Below, piece after piece: positions 1,410-55,251 of a stretch of 64,000 nucleotides of DNA. This DNA comes from an uncultured Gammaproteobacteria bacterium. GTDB taxonomy: Bacteria > Patescibacteriota > Patescibacteriia > S139-126. Location of the stretch: NCBI GenBank assembly GCA_964493305.1, contig CAZBLW010000001.1, forward strand, positions 17,743 through 81,742, written 5' to 3'. A model generated the notes under the pieces. That model did no database searches. It saw nothing but the letters and a program-made list of their open reading frames with translations, and was not told where the DNA came from. A program made the position numbers and the translations under genes. The first letter of the stretch is position 1; every line of letters begins with the position of its first letter.

Positions 1410-1742
1410 TTAAAAAATTAAGCTAAATAACCCAATTATCCAGCCGATAATCCCAATCCCAAAAATAACCTTCAAAACAAGTTCTAGCCATCTGTGCTTA
1501 ACCGCTATTATATTAATAACTTTCTGACCTTTTATTAAAAAAATAAAAATCAAGAGAATTATGATCTTTAATCCCCAAGAAAAAACAGGACTTTTAATAA
1601 AATTTTCCAATTTAACCAAATTGTAACCGAAAATTTCAAGTGGGACTACGATAAGCAAAAACCATCCGACAAGGTTTAAAATATATAAAGCAATTTTTAA
1701 TCTTAAAATTATGCTTTCTTTAAACTTTTGTTTCATATTCAA
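1410..1742 (-). CDS. small polytopic membrane protein, function unknown
   Basis: 110-aa ORF, strongly hydrophobic (LLIVVPLEIFG..., IIILLIFIFLI..., GIGIIGWIIGLFSLIF). Its start lies 25 nt downstream of tRNA-Ala(CGC). Confidence 0.5.
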   Translation of the reverse strand: MNMKQKFKESIILRLKIALYILNLVGWFLLIVVPLEIFGYNLVKLENFIKSPVFSWGLKIIILLIFIFLIKGQKVINIIAVKHRWLELVLKVIFGIGIIGWIIGLFSLIF

Positions 1743-1766
1743 CTTAGCTCAAATATTGATCTAGAT

Positions 1767-1843
1767 TGGTGGACCCGAGGGGAGTTGAACCCCTGACCTC
1801 TGCAATGCGAATGCAGCGCTCTAGCCAACTGAGCTACGGGCCC
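1767..1843 (-). tRNA. tRNA-Ala (anticodon CGC), CCA encoded
   Basis: Identical to the 1104-1180 tRNA except for the anticodon arm (CUGCA-UUCGCAU-UGCAG). G3:U70 is present. 77 nt. Confidence 0.9.
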
Positions 1844-1863
1844 AATTACCAATTACTAAGAAA

Positions 1864-1938
1864 TGGTGACCCCACCAGGAATTGAACCTGGATCTAAAAC
1901 TTAGGAGGTTTTTGTTTTATCCGTTAAACTATGGGGTC
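1864..1938 (-). tRNA. tRNA-Arg (anticodon CCT), CCA encoded
   Basis: Fold GACCCCA-UA-GUUU-AACGGAUA-AAAC-A-AAAAC-CUCCUAA-GUUUU-AGAUC-CAGGU-UCAAUUC-CUGGU-GGGGUC-ACCA. Confidence 0.85.
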
Positions 1939-6775: not shown

Positions 6776-7879
6776 ATGAAATTCATATGCACTCAAGAAA
6801 ATTTAAAAAGAGGTTTGGGTTTGGTTTCACACCTAGCAGGTAGAAATCAAAATTTACCAATTCTTAATAACGTTTTATTGGAAGCCAAGGGTGGTGGTTT
6901 AATTTTATCAACTACTAATTTAGAAATAGGTATTAAAAGCAATATTAGAGGCAAGGTAGAAAAAGAAGGTTCGCTGACGGTACCTGCGCGTTTATTTTTT
7001 GATTATATTCAAAGTATTAGAGGTGAAAAAATTGAGATCGAAAGCAAAGGAAACAATTTGGAAATAAAAACGGAAAGTTCCCAAACAGTACTCAAAGGGC
7101 TGGATTATTCAGAGTTTCCACTTATTCCAGAAATTGAAAAAAAAATATCAATAACCCTAAACGCAGGTGAACTCAAGGAAGCCCTTAACCTAGTTTTATT
7201 TGCTACAGCAATGGACAACGCCAGGCCAGAAATAAGCGGAGTATTATTTAATTTTGAAAACAATCAACTTACTCTTGCTGCCACTGACAGCTATCGTTTG
7301 GCCGAAAAGAAAATTAATATAAAAAATAGTTTGGAAAAAGAAAAAAAATTAATAATTCCCGCCTTTACCTTACAAGAATTAAGCAGACTAATAAGTGAGG
7401 TTGATAAAAAAGAAAGTTTACAAATGAATATCAATGAAAACCAAGTGAGCTTTGAGTGTGATGCTACCGTTATGATATCTCGTATAACCGAAGGGGAATA
7501 TCCTGATTATAAACAAATAATACCTCAAGACACCAAAACCAAAGTAACCGTGGATAAAAATATTTTACAACAGAACATAAAAGCAGCGAGTTTGTTTTGT
7601 AGACAAGGAATCAATGATCTTAATTTATTTTTTTATGAAAATAAAATTGAAATCAGGGCGCTAAACGACCAGTTGGGTGAAAGTAAAAACGTTGTTGAGG
7701 GCAAAATAGAAGGAGAAAAAAACCAAATTATTTTTAATTATCATTACTTACTAGATGTTTTATCTAGTATGAGTTCTAACGAAGTGGTAATAAAAATAAA
7801 TAATCCCGAAATGCCGGGATTAATAAAGCCTTTAGCCGGAGAGGATTATTTGTATATAATTATGCCAATTAAACAATAA
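6776..7879 (+). CDS. dnaN: DNA polymerase III beta sliding clamp DnaN
   Basis: 367 aa with a three-domain clamp pattern. Directly downstream of dnaA. Confidence 0.9.
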   Translation: MKFICTQENLKRGLGLVSHLAGRNQNLPILNNVLLEAKGGGLILSTTNLEIGIKSNIRGKVEKEGSLTVPARLFFDYIQSIRGEKIEIESKGNNLEIKTESSQTVLKGLDYSEFPLIPEIEKKISITLNAGELKEALNLVLFATAMDNARPEISGVLFNFENNQLTLAATDSYRLAEKKINIKNSLEKEKKLIIPAFTLQELSRLISEVDKKESLQMNINENQVSFECDATVMISRITEGEYPDYKQIIPQDTKTKVTVDKNILQQNIKAASLFCRQGINDLNLFFYENKIEIRALNDQLGESKNVVEGKIEGEKNQIIFNYHYLLDVLSSMSSNEVVIKINNPEMPGLIKPLAGEDYLYIIMPIKQ

Positions 7880-26510: not shown

Positions 26511-26594
26511 TTATATTTATTTAAATTTAAAACAGCTTAGCAAAGCTGTTTATATAAGCCAACTGACAACAACAAATTATAAGTGACAAATAAC

Positions 26595-26640
26595 TGGAGC
26601 GGGTGATCCCGCGTCCGCGGGACGACCTTTTCCTTAAAGG
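26595..26640 (-). pseudogene. partial copy of the tRNA-Gly 3' half (anticodon-loop 3' side to CCA) with the T-arm replaced by a GC hairpin CCCGCG-ga-CGCGGG
   Basis: Minus-strand sense CUUUAAGGAAAAGGUCG-UCCCGCGGACGCGGGA-UCACCCGCUCCA compared with the intact tRNA-Gly CCAAGGAAAAGGUCG-CCGGUUCGAAUCCGG-UCACCCGCUCCA. It lies 11 nt downstream of the intact gene. Confidence 0.7.
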
Positions 26641-26651
26641 TAATAAATAAA

Positions 26652-26728
26652 TGGAGCGGGTGACCGGATTCGAACCGGCGACCTTTTCCTTGGCAAGGAA
26701 ACGTTCTAGCCAACTGAACTACACCCGC
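26652..26728 (-). tRNA. tRNA-Gly (anticodon GCC), CCA encoded
   Basis: GCGGGUG-UA-GUUC-AGUUGGCUA-GAAC-G-UUUCC-UUGCCAA-GGAAA-AGGUC-GCCGG-UUCGAAU-CCGGU-CACCCGC-U-CCA. Confidence 0.9.
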
Positions 26729-26823
26729 CTACGCTGAAGCTCGGCGGGCAGGCCCGCCAAACTATTACTTATTTTGAAAGCTAATTTATTTTAGCAATTA
26801 AAACAAATTAGTCAATAATATTA

Positions 26824-29499: not shown

Positions 29500-29590
29500 G
29501 GCGCCATCGTCCCCGCCTCGCCTTGACGAGCAAGGCGAGTCGAGGCGGGCCAGCCTCGACTAGACTGCGAGGCTAGGCGGGTAGGAGGTT
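29500..29590 (+). repeat. GC-rich nested-hairpin module beginning with a 12-nt copy of the tRNA-Glu 5' end (GGCGCCATCGTC) and ending in AGGAGG
   Basis: Perfect 9-bp stem CTCGCCTTG/CAAGGCGAG and 7-bp stem AGCCTCG/CGAGGCT, strongly GC-rich in an AT-rich window. The 16-nt stretch ttatGGCGCCATCGTC is identical at 29496-29511 and at 29856-29871, the start of the real tRNA-Glu. Confidence 0.7.
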
Positions 29591-29609
29591 AGATAAAATC
29601 TACTTTTTT

Positions 29610-29855
29610 ATGTATACTATTTACTGGTTAATAAATGAACAAAGAAATAAAACCTACATTGGTTTAAGTAAAAATTTTAAACAAAGAATATTGGAACATA
29701 AAAGTAAAAAAGTTAAAACTACGATTAATTTTGGAAATTTTACTTACCACATATTGGAAAAGATAGATGTTATAACTAAAGCACGGCAAAGAGAAAAATA
29801 TTGGAAATCATCTGCCGGTAGAAGAAAATTGAAAAATTTATATAAAAATATTTAG
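29610..29855 (+). CDS. small GIY-YIG nuclease-superfamily protein (YhbQ/UPF0213-like)
   Basis: 81 aa. N-terminal YTIYWL...KTYIGLSKNFKQRILEHK (GIY-YIG ... R ... H) and C-terminal REKYWKSSAGRRKLKNL. It is a paralog of the 54707-54979 protein. Confidence 0.75.
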   Translation: MYTIYWLINEQRNKTYIGLSKNFKQRILEHKSKKVKTTINFGNFTYHILEKIDVITKARQREKYWKSSAGRRKLKNLYKNI

Positions 29856-29859
29856 TTAT

Positions 29860-29934
29860 GGCGCCATCGTCTAGGGGTTAGGACACCAGGTTTTCATCCT
29901 GGTAACCGGGGTTCGATTCCCCGTGGCGCTACCA
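29860..29934 (+). tRNA. tRNA-Glu (anticodon TTC), CCA encoded
   Basis: GGCGCCA-UC-GUCU-AGGGGUUAGGAC-ACCAGG-UUUUCAU-CCUGGU-AACCGGGG-UUCGAUU-CCCCG-UGGCGCU-A-CCA. Confidence 0.85.
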
Positions 29935-29943
29935 TAAAAAATT

Positions 29944-29970
29944 CATTCATTTTGTGAATGGATTTTTTAT
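29944..29970 (+). terminator. rho-independent terminator after tRNA-Glu
   Basis: CATTCA-tttgt-TGAATG followed by GATTTTTTATTTG. Confidence 0.55.
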
Positions 29971-29978
29971 TTGTAATA

Positions 29979-30121
29979 GCAGGGGAATCGAACGGGCAGG
30001 AATGAGCAACGAAATTTAGTTCGGAAGCGAATGTCGCACAAAGCGAGCGAGCGTAGCTTTGTGCGCTGCCCAGGGCAAGTCCCGCTAATAGCGGGACGCG
30101 GAATTCCCCGTGGCGCTACCA
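29979..30121 (+). repeat. second GC-rich nested-hairpin module ending in a 20-nt copy of the tRNA-Glu 3' end including CCA
   Basis: 10-bp perfect inverted repeat CGCACAAAGC/GCTTTGTGCG (30035-30065) and 7-bp GTCCCGC/GCGGGAC (30079-30097). 30102-30121 (ATTCCCCGTGGCGCTACCA) matches the tRNA-Glu 3' end. The 24-nt motif AGGGGAATCGAAC(C)GGGCAGGAATG is repeated at 29981-30004 and 30176-30198. Confidence 0.7.
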
Positions 30122-30273
30122 AGAGAAAAGGATTTAATTTTGAATTATGTCCTTTTTTCTTTGTCAGATTTTAGAGGGGAATCGAACCGGCAGGAATGCC
30201 CGCAGGCTGGCTTTTGTAAATTTTTTTAATAAAAAACTGCTGGCATTTGTGTCAGCAGTATAAAAGATTATAG

Positions 30274-31439: not shown

Positions 31440-31830
31440 TAGCTAGCGGAAATCGAAATGGTATGAATTATTGACTAATTTTTAACCCTGATATATAAAT
31501 AATACACAAAAAGTTCATTGCATTTTGCCAAAAGCATGGAAAGAGGAAAGTACCACTGACACCATTTCACAGGGAGGGTTTAGCTAGACTGAGACTAAAC
31601 CTGAAACAGGCCAGGCCGGGAAGTTCCCTCTGGAGCTGGATAACTGAAAATTTAGTAGGTTATCACGGGCGTTCCCGTTACAGAACTAACATATTTCTTT
31701 TTGAGTATGTGAAAGCGTTCTGAAAATTTTTTCAGAAAAATTAAGGTGGTACCGCGGATAGCGTTTGGAAAAGCGCTCTTCGTCCTTAAGTCAAATCTTG
31801 GATTTGAGGACAAAGAGCGCTTTTTATTTT
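31440..31830 (+). promoter_or_regulatory. T-box riboswitch leader (stem III, F-box, T-box sequence, terminator)
   Basis: T-box core AAGGTGGTACCGCGG at 31743-31757 against the consensus AGGGUGGNACCGCG. F-box CCGTTA at 31675-31680. Stem III TTCTGAAAA/TTTTCAGAA at 31718-31737. A 14-bp terminator stem GCGCTCTTCGTCCT/AGGACAAAGAGCGC plus T-run at 31773-31830 overlaps the antiterminator 3' side. Confidence 0.7.
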
Positions 31831-54610: not shown

Positions 54611-54700
54611 TGGCGGAGGCGGAAGGATTCGAACCTTCGATACCCGTTAAGGTATACCGCATTTCGAGTGCGGCCCATTCAACCACTCTGGCACGCCTCC
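54611..54700 (-). tRNA. tRNA-Ser (anticodon CGA), class II, CCA encoded
   Basis: GGAGGCG-UG-CCAG-AGUGGUUGAAUGG-...-CCGCA-CUCGAAA-UGCGG-UAUACCUUAACGGGUAUC-GAAGG-UUCGAAU-CCUUC-CGCCUCC-G-CCA. Confidence 0.9.
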
Positions 54701-54706
54701 TTAGTA

Positions 54707-54979
54707 CTAACTTTTTTTAATGATATCTTTATATTGTAATCGTAACAACCGGTTACCTTCTGTGGTTTTTAAATATTTTTCTCTTCTTAAAGCATCACTT
54801 TTTAATAAATAAGCTTCATAACCAATTATTTTAAATGGTCGATAGTTTTTAGTAGATTTTACCTGACCAGATTGGTGTTGCTTTAATCTAATTTTTAAGT
54901 CAGTACATGAACCTTTATAAATATCTTTGTTTGATAATAATAAAAAATAGACGTAGTGCATAGATATTATTAAAATCAT
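54707..54979 (-). CDS. small GIY-YIG nuclease-superfamily protein (YhbQ/UPF0213-like), paralog of 29610-29855
   Basis: 90 aa with YVYFLLLSNKDIYKGSCTDLKIRLKQHQ (GIY-YIG..R..H) and REKYLKTTEGNRLLRLQ. Lies 6 nt upstream of tRNA-Ser on the same strand. Confidence 0.75.
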   Translation of the reverse strand: MILIISMHYVYFLLLSNKDIYKGSCTDLKIRLKQHQSGQVKSTKNYRPFKIIGYEAYLLKSDALRREKYLKTTEGNRLLRLQYKDIIKKS

Positions 54980-54981
54980 TT

Positions 54982-55057
54982 CGTCACGTCATGCGACGTG
55001 ACGCCCCGTCGAATGATGGGGCGAGTGCGGCGCCTTCAACCACTCAGCCACCTCTCC
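54982..55057 (-). repeat. GC-rich hairpin module plus degenerate 36-nt copy of the tRNA-Ser 5' half
   Basis: 9-bp perfect hairpin CGTCACGTC-atgc-GACGTGACG (54982-55003) and CGCCCC/GGGGCG (55002-55023). 55022-55057 matches tRNA-Ser positions 1-36 (acceptor, D-arm, anticodon 5' side) at 30/36 identities. Confidence 0.7.
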
Positions 55058-55251
55058 GGATTAGTATTATGAATTACGAATTAAGAATTAAGAATTAAGG
55101 TTTATTAATTATAAATCATTAGTAATTTATATTATATCTTTAAAATAATATTAAGACAAAGATTGACAAAATGCCAAAAAAATGCTAATATTGTTGGTCA
55201 TTTAGTTTTTTAAAAAATATTTTTTTATTCACCAAACAAAAGGAGATAAAA

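What the first reader, a model, noticed from the sequence alone, without database searches (positions are those of the whole stretch)
26595..26760. Half-tRNA copy next to tRNA-Gly in which the T-arm is replaced by a GC hairpin
Eleven nt downstream of the intact tRNA-Gly(GCC) there is a copy of its 3' half. The anticodon-loop 3' side, variable region and acceptor 3' strand plus CCA are conserved, but the T-arm is exactly replaced by the GC palindrome CCCGCG-ga-CGCGGG. A further GC hairpin GGCGGGC-agg-GCCCGCC lies just upstream of the tRNA at 26743-26758. This is the third tRNA locus in the window with a partial self-copy plus GC-rich hairpins, here without a GIY-YIG ORF. It suggests the hairpins and tRNA fragments are the mobile or recombinogenic unit and the nuclease gene is optional cargo.
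Basis: seen in the sequence. Interest (0 to 1): 0.6.

Follow-up and report, generated by a model that had tools for sequence, protein, structure and literature searches.

The report
Scarred leftover half of tRNA-Gly gene
Next to a working glycine tRNA gene in a tiny CPR (Patescibacteria) bacterium sits a dead, remodelled copy of the gene's back half, most likely a scar left by selfish DNA cassettes that repeatedly invade tRNA genes in this lineage and bring a replacement tRNA with them.

Summary
On the minus strand, 11 nt after tRNA-Gly(GCC) (26728..26652), lies a 46-nt copy of its 3' part (26640..26595). Two blocks are identical to the tRNA (13/13 and 12/12). The anticodon is collapsed to one T, and the 15-nt T-arm is replaced by the hairpin TCCCGC-GGAC-GCGGGA.

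The fragment is absent from all five syntenic relatives that could be read, so it is lineage-specific and not a conserved RNA. The upstream hairpin is a different thing. It is a conserved part of the tRNA-Gly leader in relatives that lack the fragment.

In context, CPR tRNA loci (Glu and Ser here; Glu, Val, Gly, Leu, Tyr, Gln, Pro elsewhere) carry nested insertions. These include 80-aa GIY-YIG genes travelling with an intact tRNA. They also include a new conserved structured module, "X". Both sit inside "shell" remnants of the resident tRNA. The shells are interrupted by GC hairpins at recurrent sites (anticodon 35/36, T-loop), the same two sites damaged in the Gly fragment.

Best reading (about 0.55): a decayed scar of such an event, with the nuclease gene lost. 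The tRNA fragments derive from the target and are not the mobile unit. The fragment alone is ordinary. The element family around it appears undescribed in the papers I searched.

The parts
26652..26728 (-). Intact tRNA-Gly(GCC) with encoded CCA. Its sequence is identical in the complete genes of relatives L002, L003, L005, L009, L010 and L065.
   Evidence: ARAGORN; Rfam 71.7 bits; relatives
26641..26651 (-). 11-nt AT spacer TTTATTTATTA between the intact gene and the remnant. It is absent from relatives, where CCA is followed by G(TTAT).
26623..26640 (-). Remnant part 1: CCTT-T-AAGGAAAAGGTCG, i.e. anticodon stem/loop, variable region and G49. The anticodon GCC is collapsed to T. The last 13 nt are identical to tRNA nt 38-50.
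26607..26622 (-). GC hairpin TCCCGC-GGAC-GCGGGA in place of the T-arm. It has the same stem, and a shared GGACGCGG extension, as the hairpin at the right end of the X unit at tRNA-Glu (30080-30102). The same stem also occurs in a pseudo-tRNA-Glu of another CPR genome (L061).
26595..26606 (-). Remnant part 2: TCACCCGCTCCA (T65, acceptor 3' strand, discriminator, CCA), 12/12 identical to the tRNA. It is followed by GTTAT, as is the tRNA end in relatives L010 and L003.
26557..26566 (-). TCAGTTGGCT, a 10-nt copy of the tRNA-Gly D-loop region (nt 12-21). It lies inside about 36 nt that L010 lacks, between the remnant and the terminator. Possibly a further shell piece.
26530..26551 (-). Terminator-like hairpin AAACAGCTT-tgct-AAGCTGTTT followed by a T-rich tail. 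It is conserved in L002 and L010 directly after tRNA-Gly. The remnant therefore lies inside the tRNA-Gly transcription unit.
   Evidence: read from sequence; not flagged by the consensus scan
26743..26758 (-). Leader hairpin GGCGGGC-ct-GCCCGCC, 14 nt upstream of tRNA-Gly. It is conserved in position in L065, L002, L010 and L005, absent in L007/L008 and L009, and L003 has a different GC element there. It is not part of the remnant. Its arms equal tRNA positions -1..+5 and their inverted copy.
26788..26815 (-). Promoter-like site TTGACT-16-TAAAAT with TG extension, conserved in relatives.
29500..30121 (+). Comparison locus in the same window, a nested insertion in tRNA-Glu:
- shell nt 1-12 (29500-29511)
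- GC hairpins (29512-29581)
- shell nt 13-23 (29582-29592, 1 mismatch)
- GIY-YIG ORF (29610-29855)
- intact tRNA-Glu (29860-29934)
- new terminator
- inverted T-arm copy (29982-29993)
- X module (29994-30079)
- hairpin TCCCGC-taata-GCGGGA plus CGCGGA (30080-30102)
- shell 3' end (30103-30121), joined to the ancestral trailer

Best explanation
The half-tRNA is a non-functional 'shell' remnant. It is the 3' part (about nt 30-77) of a tRNA-Gly copy that was displaced or duplicated when a tRNA-targeting selfish cassette hit this gene. It is not a gene or a conserved RNA.

In this CPR lineage, tRNA genes are repeatedly invaded by two kinds of insert:
(i) cassettes made of an ~80-aa GIY-YIG nuclease gene plus an intact tRNA;
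(ii) non-coding units built around a conserved three-way-junction module, here called X.

Each event leaves the old tRNA as flanking pieces, while an intact tRNA keeps the cell viable. The pieces are then damaged or remodelled at recurrent sites, the anticodon loop (35/36) and the T-loop, where short GC hairpins replace tRNA sequence.

At Gly the proposed order is:
1. Insertion or gene conversion in the anticodon-loop region.
2. Loss of the cassette interior down to an 11-nt spacer.
3. A remnant with a collapsed anticodon and a T-arm replaced by a hairpin of the type found at the right end of X units.

What is shown:
- the anatomy;
- absence of the fragment in relatives;
- recurrence of the same architecture at other tRNAs and in other genomes;
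- cassette-borne tRNAs that differ as coherent alleles from their shells;
- a decayed ORF-less version of a cassette.

What is inferred:
- that a nuclease-initiated double-strand break and repair drives these events;
- the order of events at Gly;
- that a nuclease gene was once present at Gly.
For: (1) Lineage-specific. Syntenic VanW-tRNA-Gly loci in L002 and L010 (72% VanW identity), L009 (70%), L003 (63%) and L005 (60%) have the identical tRNA-Gly with no remnant after it. In all but rearranged L009, a terminator-like hairpin and tRNA-Leu follow directly.

(2) The same gene is hit differently in L002 and L051. There, an exact copy of tRNA nt 1-46, a hairpin, the X module and an inverted copy of nt 40-48 lie upstream of the intact gene. 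tRNA-Gly is therefore a recurrent target.

(3) The Glu locus in the window has both shell ends abutting the ancestral promoter and trailer seen in the empty site of L009. Everything between them is inserted.

(4) GIY-YIG homologues P0123, P0124 and P0128 all sit at tRNA-Glu loci of other CPR genomes, inside shells. These shells keep the tRNA segments in order but are interrupted by GC hairpins at 12/13, 22/23, 35/36 and in the T-loop. The Gly remnant is damaged at the anticodon and the T-arm.

(5) Shell and intact tRNA are different, internally compensatory alleles:
- L061: shell GCCGCCA/TGGCGGT versus intact GGCCTCT/AGAGGCT.
- L051-Val: shell G(T)GCACT/AGTGCCC versus intact GCACGCT/AGCGTGC.
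- Window Ser: the 5' shell differs at 6 of 36 positions.
The intact tRNA therefore travels with the cassette.

(6) Decay path. L005 Glu keeps a mutated 12-mer and degenerate hairpins but no ORF, at the site that carries an ORF in the window and in L007. L061 shows [intact tRNA][ORF][shell with hairpins]. Deleting that ORF would give the Gly arrangement.

(7) The hairpin stem TCCCGC/GCGGGA, with the shared GGACGCGG, links the remnant to the X-unit right end at Glu. The same stem occurs in the L061 shell.

(8) Precedent. T4 SegB, a GIY-YIG nuclease encoded within a tRNA gene cluster, recognises the T-arm motif GGTTCRANTCC and drives inheritance of itself and neighbouring tRNA genes (PMC2330249). 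Fungal mitochondrial mobile ORFs insert together with a replacement gene end and leave the native end downstream (PMC3630166).
Against: - There is no GIY-YIG ORF, ORF relic or X core at the Gly locus. A past cassette there is inferred only by analogy.
- The two tRNA-derived blocks are 100% identical to the intact gene. There is no foreign-allele signal, and which copy is 'original' cannot be decided from the flanks alone.
- The spacer after the intact gene (TTTATTTATTAC) resembles the sequence after the remnant (GTTATTTGTCAC, 9/12). This also fits a simple tandem duplication.
- The origin of the hairpin is unresolved. It can equally be read as a local direct-inverted-direct repetition of the acceptor motif CCCGC.
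- Identical 6-bp GC stems could recur by chance among the few dozen hairpins seen.
- The ~80-aa nucleases have no DNA-binding domain. Neither their activity nor their target has been shown.
- Closest relatives: contigs L007/L008 (74%) end inside the tRNA-Gly and L065 (68%) ends 1 nt after it, so the state of the nearest lineages is unknown.
Confidence: 0.55

Rival explanations
1. Plain local tandem duplication by replication slippage of the tRNA 3' half plus a few trailer bases. The redundant copy then decayed (anticodon deletion, T-arm turned into a palindrome by template switching). No mobile element was involved.
For: - The spacer TTTATTTATTAC and the post-remnant GTTATTTGTCAC are 9/12 identical.
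- The hairpin region can be read as CCCGC (direct), GCGGG (inverted), CCCGC (direct), a pattern typical of fold-back template switching.
- No ORF or X core is present at the locus.
Against: - It does not explain why the same kind of remnant with GC hairpins occurs at Glu and Ser in the same window, and at several tRNAs in other CPR genomes, next to insertions.
- It does not explain why the lesions fall on the two recurrent shell sites.
- The tRNA-derived blocks are 25/25 identical while the supposed duplicated trailer is only 75% identical.
- AT-rich 12-mers match easily by chance.
Confidence: 0.15
2. One reading: the hairpin plus tRNA fragment is itself a small non-autonomous mobile or recombinogenic unit, moved in trans (for example by the GIY-YIG nucleases), and the nuclease gene is optional cargo.
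For: - Non-coding X units with tRNA-derived repeats occur at six tRNA types in several CPR lineages, without a nuclease gene within the fetched flanks.
- L002 has two tandem non-coding units after tRNA-Glu.
- Hairpin stems covary between genomes (TCGCCC/GGGCGA versus TCACCC/GGGTGA) and show a sense-strand bias of 27:9. This suggests selection on the hairpin structure.
Against: - The tRNA parts always match the neighbouring tRNA of that genome, so they are acquired at the target and not carried.
- The Gly remnant has no X core and no second copy anywhere in the window.
- The hairpin sequences at different sites are unrelated.
- The ORF-less Glu site in L005 is degenerate.
- There were no hits in viral contigs.
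Confidence: 0.12
3. A functional RNA element in the tRNA-Gly 3' trailer. Candidates are a stabilising or processing structure, a decoy for a T-arm- or acceptor-directed factor, or a CCA-ended minihelix.
For: - It lies inside the transcription unit, between the tRNA and the terminator.
- It contains a very stable hairpin (-20.2 kcal/mol, z = -2.6).
- It keeps the acceptor 3' strand, U73 and CCA perfectly.
- An alternative 5-bp helix, GCGGG/CCCGC followed by UCCA, mimics the Gly acceptor end.
Against: - It is absent in every readable relative.
- The microhelix fold is 4 kcal/mol worse than the minimum-energy fold, probability about 0.003.
- There is no 5' acceptor strand.
- There is no Rfam match.
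- In the predicted co-transcript it competes with the true acceptor strand, which would be harmful rather than useful.
Confidence: 0.08
4. An attL/attR-type duplication left by an integrase-driven element that integrated in tRNA-Gly and was later almost entirely deleted.
For: - It is a direct repeat of a tRNA 3' portion adjacent to the gene.
- From general knowledge, the T-loop and anticodon loop are known integrase sublocations.
Against: - There is no integrase gene in the window neighbourhood or in any related locus.
- Only 11 nt separate the repeats.
- The repeat is internally rearranged.
- Related loci carry GIY-YIG genes, not recombinases.
Confidence: 0.05

Closest known systems
[quoted passage not shown]
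   Same: - A GIY-YIG nuclease gene embedded among tRNA genes.
- Its recognition site is centred on the T-arm motif GGTTCRANTCC.
- It spreads together with the neighbouring tRNA genes by double-strand-break repair.
- Relatives lack the gene at otherwise homologous loci.
   Different: - SegB is about 220 aa with a DNA-binding region. The CPR proteins are 79-85 aa and consist of the catalytic domain only.
- SegB lies between genes and leaves no nested tRNA shells, GC hairpins or X module.
- Here the host is a bacterial chromosome, not a phage.
- No nuclease gene is present at the Gly locus itself.
Mobile endonuclease ORFs (mORFs) in fungal mitochondrial genes that carry a replacement gene end (Allomyces atp6; Glomus atp6, atp9, cox2, nad3; PMC3630166)
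   Same: - The insertion brings a functional replacement for part of the host gene.
- The native part is displaced downstream as an unexpressed or decaying duplicate.
- The inserted and native parts can be different alleles, as in L061, L051-Val and the window Ser locus.
   Different: - Those elements target protein-coding genes in organelles and are fused in frame.
- Here the targets are tRNA genes, and either the 5' or the 3' part (or the whole tRNA) is replaced.
- The displaced pieces here are additionally interrupted by GC hairpins.
Partial tRNA duplications flanking integrase-mediated genomic islands (attL/attR)
   Same: A direct repeat of a tRNA 3' portion lies next to an intact tRNA gene, with breakpoints in the anticodon loop or T-loop.
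   Different: - There is no integrase and no island.
- The repeats are 11 nt apart.
- There are 5' as well as 3' duplications, and inverted copies of the target beside the X module.
Group I introns in Patescibacteria tRNA genes, including the unusual 35/36 site (PMC13011429)
   Same: - The same phylum, and the tRNA anticodon loop at 35/36 is a recurrent point of interruption.
- Most of those introns lack endonuclease genes.
   Different: - The insertions here are not introns. An intact uninterrupted tRNA is present, the interrupted copies lack parts and could not be spliced into a tRNA, and no group I intron model matched.
- That paper does not mention GIY-YIG, tRNA fragments or hairpins.
Split, permuted and multi-intron tRNA genes of Archaea (Nanoarchaeum, Thermoproteales; from general knowledge)
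   Same: tRNA pieces flanked by GC-rich complementary sequences, and interruptions at many non-canonical positions, including the D-arm and T-loop.
   Different: - Those pieces are the only copy and are joined or spliced into a functional tRNA by the archaeal splicing endonuclease.
- Here a complete gene exists and the pieces are redundant.
- No complementary 5' half of tRNA-Gly is present in the window.

Membership tests
Functional tRNA gene | Complete cloverleaf (acceptor 5' strand, D-arm, anticodon, T-arm with conserved T-loop) detectable by tRNA models | tested here: not met
   ARAGORN and the Rfam tRNA model report only 26652-26728. Nothing is reported at 26595-26640, even at E<=5. The 5' half is missing, the anticodon is collapsed and the T-loop is gone.
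Homing-endonuclease (GIY-YIG) cassette or its remnant | Endonuclease ORF within or next to the interrupted target | tested here: not met
   No GIY-YIG ORF at the Gly locus. The only two in the window are 29610-29855 and 54710-54961.
Homing-endonuclease (GIY-YIG) cassette or its remnant | Presence/absence polymorphism at an otherwise homologous locus in relatives | tested here: met
   The remnant is absent in L002, L003, L005, L009 and L010, which have the same flanking VanW gene and identical tRNA-Gly.
Homing-endonuclease (GIY-YIG) cassette or its remnant | Displaced or duplicated piece of the target gene beside a functional replacement, as in fungal mORF gene hybrids | tested here: met
   An intact tRNA plus a displaced 3' part. 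The same architecture occurs with an ORF at Glu and Ser here and in L059, L061, L062 and L051.
Homing-endonuclease (GIY-YIG) cassette or its remnant | Demonstrated site-specific cleavage of the empty allele and conversion | not testable with these tools
   Needs enzyme assays or crosses.
X module (this study, covariance model R1) | Three-way junction P1-P2 (tandem GA)-P3 core matching R1 | tested here: not met
   cmsearch finds X at 29994-30079 (93.5 bits) but nothing at the Gly locus at E<=10. Only the right-end hairpin motif is shared.
Integrase att-site duplication at a tRNA gene | Integrase gene and element DNA between direct repeats of the tRNA 3' part | tested here: not met
   Only 11 nt lie between the copies. 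No recombinase was found in the ORF/Pfam listings of the window neighbourhood or of the related loci.
Intrinsic terminator | GC hairpin immediately followed by a U tract on the transcribed strand | tested here: not met
   On the tRNA strand the hairpin is followed by TCACCCGCTCCAG. The scan flags it only on the opposite strand. The operon's terminator-like hairpin is 26530-26551.
REP/MITE-type dispersed palindromic repeat | Many copies dispersed through intergenic regions of the genome | tested here: not met
   The stem pattern occurs twice in 64 kb, both times beside tRNA fragments. GC hairpins are concentrated at three tRNA loci.
Split tRNA half-gene (archaeal type) | Matching 5' half elsewhere with a complementary leader, and no intact gene | tested here: not met
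   An intact gene is adjacent. No 5' half of tRNA-Gly is found in the window beyond a 10-nt D-loop match.

The most novel reading that the evidence does not exclude
The hairpin-bearing tRNA remnants and the X module may not be mere debris. They could be working RNA or single-stranded-DNA parts of an undescribed family of tRNA-nesting selfish elements in CPR bacteria.

The ~80-aa GIY-YIG nucleases lack any DNA-binding domain, so they would have to obtain target specificity from elsewhere. Candidates are:
- the structured X scaffold, with its target-complementary inverted tRNA segment acting like a guide;
- the GC hairpins or cruciforms, acting as structure-specific substrates.

Under this reading, ORF-less units such as the Gly remnant would be trans-mobilisable, non-autonomous copies.
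Probability: 0.1. Interest if true: 0.8.

Novelty: new variant of a known kind. Interest (0 to 1): 0.45.

Why it matters
By itself, the Gly half-copy is a decaying scar of little consequence. It does warn that tRNA-like fragments in CPR genomes are debris, not split genes.

Its context matters more. Genome-reduced Patescibacteria appear to tolerate a family of selfish cassettes that nest inside essential single-copy tRNA genes. The cassettes do this by carrying a replacement tRNA. That is the tRNA counterpart of the replacement-gene-end strategy of fungal mitochondrial mobile ORFs, and of SegB-driven tRNA cluster inheritance in T4.

This context offers three things:
- a route for horizontal replacement of tRNA alleles;
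- a set of minimal GIY-YIG nucleases whose specificity is unexplained;
- a new conserved structured module (X) with covariation support that is absent from Rfam.

Each of these can be tested directly.

Tried and rejected
- **Rfam.** Searches at gathering and at permissive E-value thresholds over the Gly locus, the Glu locus, L051 and L055 gave no family for the remnant, the hairpins or X. The only weak hits were chance-level (aspS 29 bits versus a cut-off of 42.5; tmRNA_permuted 14 bits).
- **tmRNA resemblance of X** (GGAUUCGA(A)C, a long helix, GCAAGCGAAUGU, GGAC before a hairpin, a CCA end). I recalled this from memory. It is not supported by the Rfam tmRNA models, and the 'D-loop-like' motif is simply an exact inverted copy of the neighbouring tRNA's T-loop. 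I dropped it.
- **Hammerhead-like reading** of the tandem-GA junction. The core nucleotides C3, U4 and G5 do not fit, so I rejected it.
- **Minihelix or microhelix function** for the remnant. The fold is thermodynamically disfavoured.
- **Terminator function** of the hairpin. There is no U tract on the tRNA strand.
- **Covariance model R1** found no hidden X core at the Gly locus.
- **Collection scans.** The genome contigs and metagenome-contig scans with X patterns returned mostly chance hits in GC-rich genomes. True hits were only in CPR contigs. The viral-contig scans for X and for the remnant found nothing.
- **Flank continuity at Gly.** The remnant's CCA is joined to the ancestral GTTAT. 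I first took this as proof that the remnant is the original end. It cannot distinguish the two copies of a direct repeat, so I now use it only as consistency. At Glu the same argument is valid, because both flanks of the intact gene are new.
- **Literature searches** for GIY-YIG plus tRNA in Patescibacteria/CPR found no description of these cassettes.
Full report
**The observation**

The tRNA-Gly(GCC) gene is on the minus strand at 26728..26652 (ARAGORN; Rfam tRNA 71.7 bits). Read on that strand, the order is:
- promoter-like TTGACT-16-TAAAAT (26815..26788);
- hairpin GGCGGGC-ct-GCCCGCC (26758..26743), then 14 nt;
- the tRNA;
- TTTATTTATTA (11 nt);
- CCTTTAAGGAAAAGGTCG | TCCCGCGGACGCGGGA | TCACCCGCTCCA (26640..26595);
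- about 45 nt;
- a terminator-like hairpin (26551..26530);
- a second promoter and tRNA-Leu(TAA).

The two tRNA-derived blocks are exact: 13/13 for tRNA nt 38-50 and 12/12 for nt 66-77. Apart from tiles overlapping tRNA-Gly itself, only the two tRNA-Ala gene tiles score higher in a scan with tRNA-Gly (score 40, about the 99.9th percentile of 6394 tiles).

In addition, the anticodon GCC is reduced to one T.

The stem TCCCGC/GCGGGA occurs only twice in the window (expected 0.00). The other copy directly precedes a 3' fragment of tRNA-Glu.

**The organism**

The window comes from a Patescibacteria (CPR) genome. The flanking 617-aa VanW protein has thousands of homologues, and those that carry a name are named Komeili-, Falkow- and Kerfeldbacteria and Parcubacteria. 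Its exact sequence lies on a 558-kb NCBI contig and in a Logan assembly that is identical to the window over 21.9 kb.

**Relatives**

I fetched syntenic loci through VanW homologues. tRNA-Gly is identical in every complete copy. The remnant is absent in L002 and L010 (72% VanW identity), L009 (70%), L003 (63%) and L005 (60%). In all of these except rearranged L009, CCA is followed directly by a terminator-like hairpin and tRNA-Leu.

The contigs of the closest relatives break inside the tRNA (L007/L008, 74%) or 1 nt after it (L065, 68%). Their state is unknown.

The upstream hairpin behaves differently. It lies downstream of a conserved promoter. It is identical in L065 and is present as variants in L002, L010 and L005. 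It therefore belongs to the tRNA-Gly leader and not to the event that made the remnant.

L002 carries a different rearrangement of the same gene. An exact copy of nt 1-46, a hairpin, an ~85-nt GC-rich module, an inverted copy of nt 40-48 and an AT spacer all lie upstream of the intact gene.

**The Glu locus is the key to the Gly locus**

L009 has an 'empty' tRNA-Glu: promoter, tRNA, then an AGAGAAAA... terminator.

In the window, tRNA-Glu nt 1-12 (29500-29511) abut that promoter. After two GC hairpins, nt 13-23 follow (29582-29592). Nt 57-75 (30103-30121) abut that terminator. Everything between is inserted:
- an 81-aa GIY-YIG ORF (Pfam 47 bits);
- an intact tRNA-Glu with a new terminator;
- an inverted copy of the T-arm;
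- the same GC-rich module as in L002-Gly;
- the hairpin TCCCGC-taata-GCGGGA plus CGCGGA.

L007 has the ORF too. L002 has no ORF but two tandem non-coding units after tRNA-Glu. L005 keeps only a mutated 12-mer and degenerate hairpins, with no ORF. That is a decayed cassette.

**Module X**

Pattern scans of the genome and metagenome collections found X only in CPR contigs, always beside a tRNA and in its orientation. The tRNAs are Glu, Gly (two lineages), Tyr, Gln, Pro and Leu.

An alignment of eight copies folds into a three-way junction:
- P1 is (G/C)GGCAG...CTGCC(C/G).
- P2 carries a tandem-GA internal loop.
- P3 is a variable hairpin.
- Nine of the 19 pairs show double compensatory changes.

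A covariance model built from this alignment recovered an unseen divergent copy at tRNA-Leu in L051 (44.8 bits). It found one complete X in the window and none at the Gly locus.

X is not matched by any Rfam 15 family.

At T-loop sites, the left side of X is an inverted copy of the neighbouring tRNA's T-loop-to-3'-end (12-22 nt). The right side is NGGACAAG, a variable hairpin, GCGG(A), and a direct copy from about A58 onward. At tRNA-Gly 46/47 the arrangement is mirrored. I cannot explain the inverted target copies. Fold-back repair, a folded single-strand recombination site and a guide-like role all remain open.

**The nuclease cassettes**

The window's two GIY-YIG proteins (81 and 84 aa) are catalytic domains only. 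The homologues P0123, P0124 and P0128 all lie at tRNA-Glu loci in other CPR genomes.

There, an intact tRNA-Glu and the ORF, which sits just upstream or downstream of it, are nested in a 'shell'. The shell consists of the old tRNA's segments in order, interrupted by GC hairpins at recurrent positions (12/13, 22/23, 35/36, T-loop).

The shell and the intact gene can be different, internally compensatory alleles:
- L061: GCCGCCA/TGGCGGT versus GGCCTCT/AGAGGCT.
- L051-Val: G(T)GCACT/AGTGCCC versus GCACGCT/AGCGTGC.
- The window's Ser 5' shell differs at 6 of 36 positions.

This shows that the intact tRNA travels with the cassette and replaces a resident gene.

In L051-Val, D-loop and anticodon-stem segments of the shell are replaced by TCCGCC-n-GGCGGA hairpins. 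L061 has a hairpin in the shell's T-loop and a TCCCGC-ttcg-GCGGGA hairpin at 35/36. 'tRNA element replaced by a TCC...GGA hairpin' is therefore a recurrent property of shells.

Hairpin stems covary between genomes and show a 27:9 bias for a C-rich 5' arm on the tRNA-sense strand. Seven of the 12 perfect GC hairpins in the window cluster at the Gly, Glu and Ser loci.

**Interpretation of the Gly fragment**

It has the anatomy of a shell 3' part. It spans about nt 30-77 and is damaged at the two recurrent sites, the anticodon and the T-arm. It lies directly after an intact tRNA, like the L061 arrangement with the ORF removed.

Its hairpin aligns with the right end of the Glu X unit: TCCCGC[TAATAGCG]GGACGCGGAAT versus TCCCGC--GGACGCGGGAT.

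The part that has been removed, GGTTCGAATCC, is the motif that the T4 GIY-YIG nuclease SegB recognises in tRNA genes (PMC2330249).

The general strategy is to insert together with a replacement for the disrupted gene part and leave the native part downstream. This is documented for mobile endonuclease ORFs in fungal mitochondria (PMC3630166).

I therefore read the fragment as a decayed scar of a tRNA-targeting cassette event (confidence 0.55).

The weak points are these:
- No ORF or X relic is present at Gly.
- The copies are identical, so no donor signal exists.
- The 9/12 similarity of the two trailers allows a plain tandem duplication (0.15).
- The hairpin can also be read as a local direct-inverted-direct repeat of CCCGC.

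**Function**

Nothing supports a function.
- The remnant is not conserved.
- It folds into the hairpin plus weak flanking pairs (-20.2 kcal/mol).
- The acceptor-like microhelix has a probability of about 0.003.
- In the predicted co-transcript, its 3' strand competes with the true acceptor strand.

**Comparison and novelty**

The nearest known systems are:
- SegB-type free-standing GIY-YIG endonucleases;
- fungal mORF gene hybrids;
- integrase att duplications;
- group I introns at 35/36 in Patescibacteria tRNAs (PMC13011429; no mention of GIY-YIG, fragments or hairpins);
- archaeal split tRNAs.

None combines all of the following: minimal nucleases, a cassette-borne tRNA, nested shells with hairpins, and the X module.

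My literature searches found no description of such elements. This covers only the open-access library I could search.

The fragment itself is an ordinary remnant. The element family around it is a new variant of a known kind.

Noticed in passing
window 29982-30121 (+); also L002 2226-2311 and 5281-5362, L011 1929-2019, L042 112-197, L051 624-717 and 1641-1731, L055 1638-1742 and 1813-1928: Module X is a conserved ~85-nt three-way-junction element (P1, P2 with a tandem-GA loop, P3; 9 of 19 pairs with compensatory changes). It was found only in CPR contigs, beside tRNA genes and in their orientation. At T-loop sites it is flanked by an inverted and a direct copy of the tRNA's T-loop-to-3'-end. 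It has no Rfam match.
   Followed up: partly
window 30176-30210 (+): A truncated X unit: GGGGAATCGAACC + GGCAGGAATG, then a deletion. It lies downstream of the ancestral tRNA-Glu terminator. L009 has a degenerate counterpart (AGAGAATCGAAT). This suggests an older, decayed insertion.
   Followed up: partly
window 54611-55058 (-): At the Ser locus, the 5' shell (tRNA-Ser nt 1-36, ending inside the anticodon at 35/36) differs from the intact tRNA-Ser(CGA) at 6 of 36 positions. The intact tRNA next to the GIY-YIG ORF (54961..54710) is therefore probably a different, imported allele.
   Followed up: partly
window 26557-26566 (-): A 10-nt copy of the tRNA-Gly D-loop region (TCAGTTGGCT) lies inside about 36 nt that L010 lacks, between the 3' remnant and the terminator. 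It may be another shell piece or a chance match (rough p about 0.01).
   Followed up: no
L003 2205-2230: The tRNA-Gly leader of this relative contains AGGACAAGTCTCGC. This matches 13 of 14 nt of the motif that follows X plus the first hairpin arm in the Glu unit. It hints at a decayed X unit upstream of tRNA-Gly in that lineage.
   Followed up: no
L059 1330-2680; L061 1240-1950; L062 1380-1840: tRNA-Glu loci of other CPR genomes carry one or two 79-85-aa GIY-YIG genes and an intact tRNA-Glu nested in hairpin-interrupted pseudo-tRNA shells. In L061 the ORF's ATG overlaps the tRNA's CCA. L059 has three copies of the 5' segment with the same 50-nt hairpin at 12/13 as the window.
   Followed up: partly
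window 31528-31790 (+): A T-box leader (Rfam RF00230, 110 bits). It is unrelated to the finding.
   Followed up: no
L011 about 1600-1900 (minus strand); L056 about 7400-7700: Downstream of the X unit, a tRNA gene is interrupted right after its anticodon loop (GCCGTTGTAGCTCAGTTGGTAGAGCACATCCTTGGTAA | ACTCATTGCCC...). This is probably one of the group I introns reported for Patescibacteria tRNAs.
   Followed up: no
L007/L008 ends; L065 end: Three short-read (Logan) contigs of the closest relatives end inside tRNA-Gly or 1 nt after it. This suggests repeats or strain variation at this locus in those populations.
   Followed up: no
L016 / L002 (CAZINS010000006.1): The public record is titled 'uncultured Gammaproteobacteria bacterium'. 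Its gene content and synteny are those of a CPR relative of the window (72% VanW identity), so the bin is probably mislabelled.
   Followed up: no
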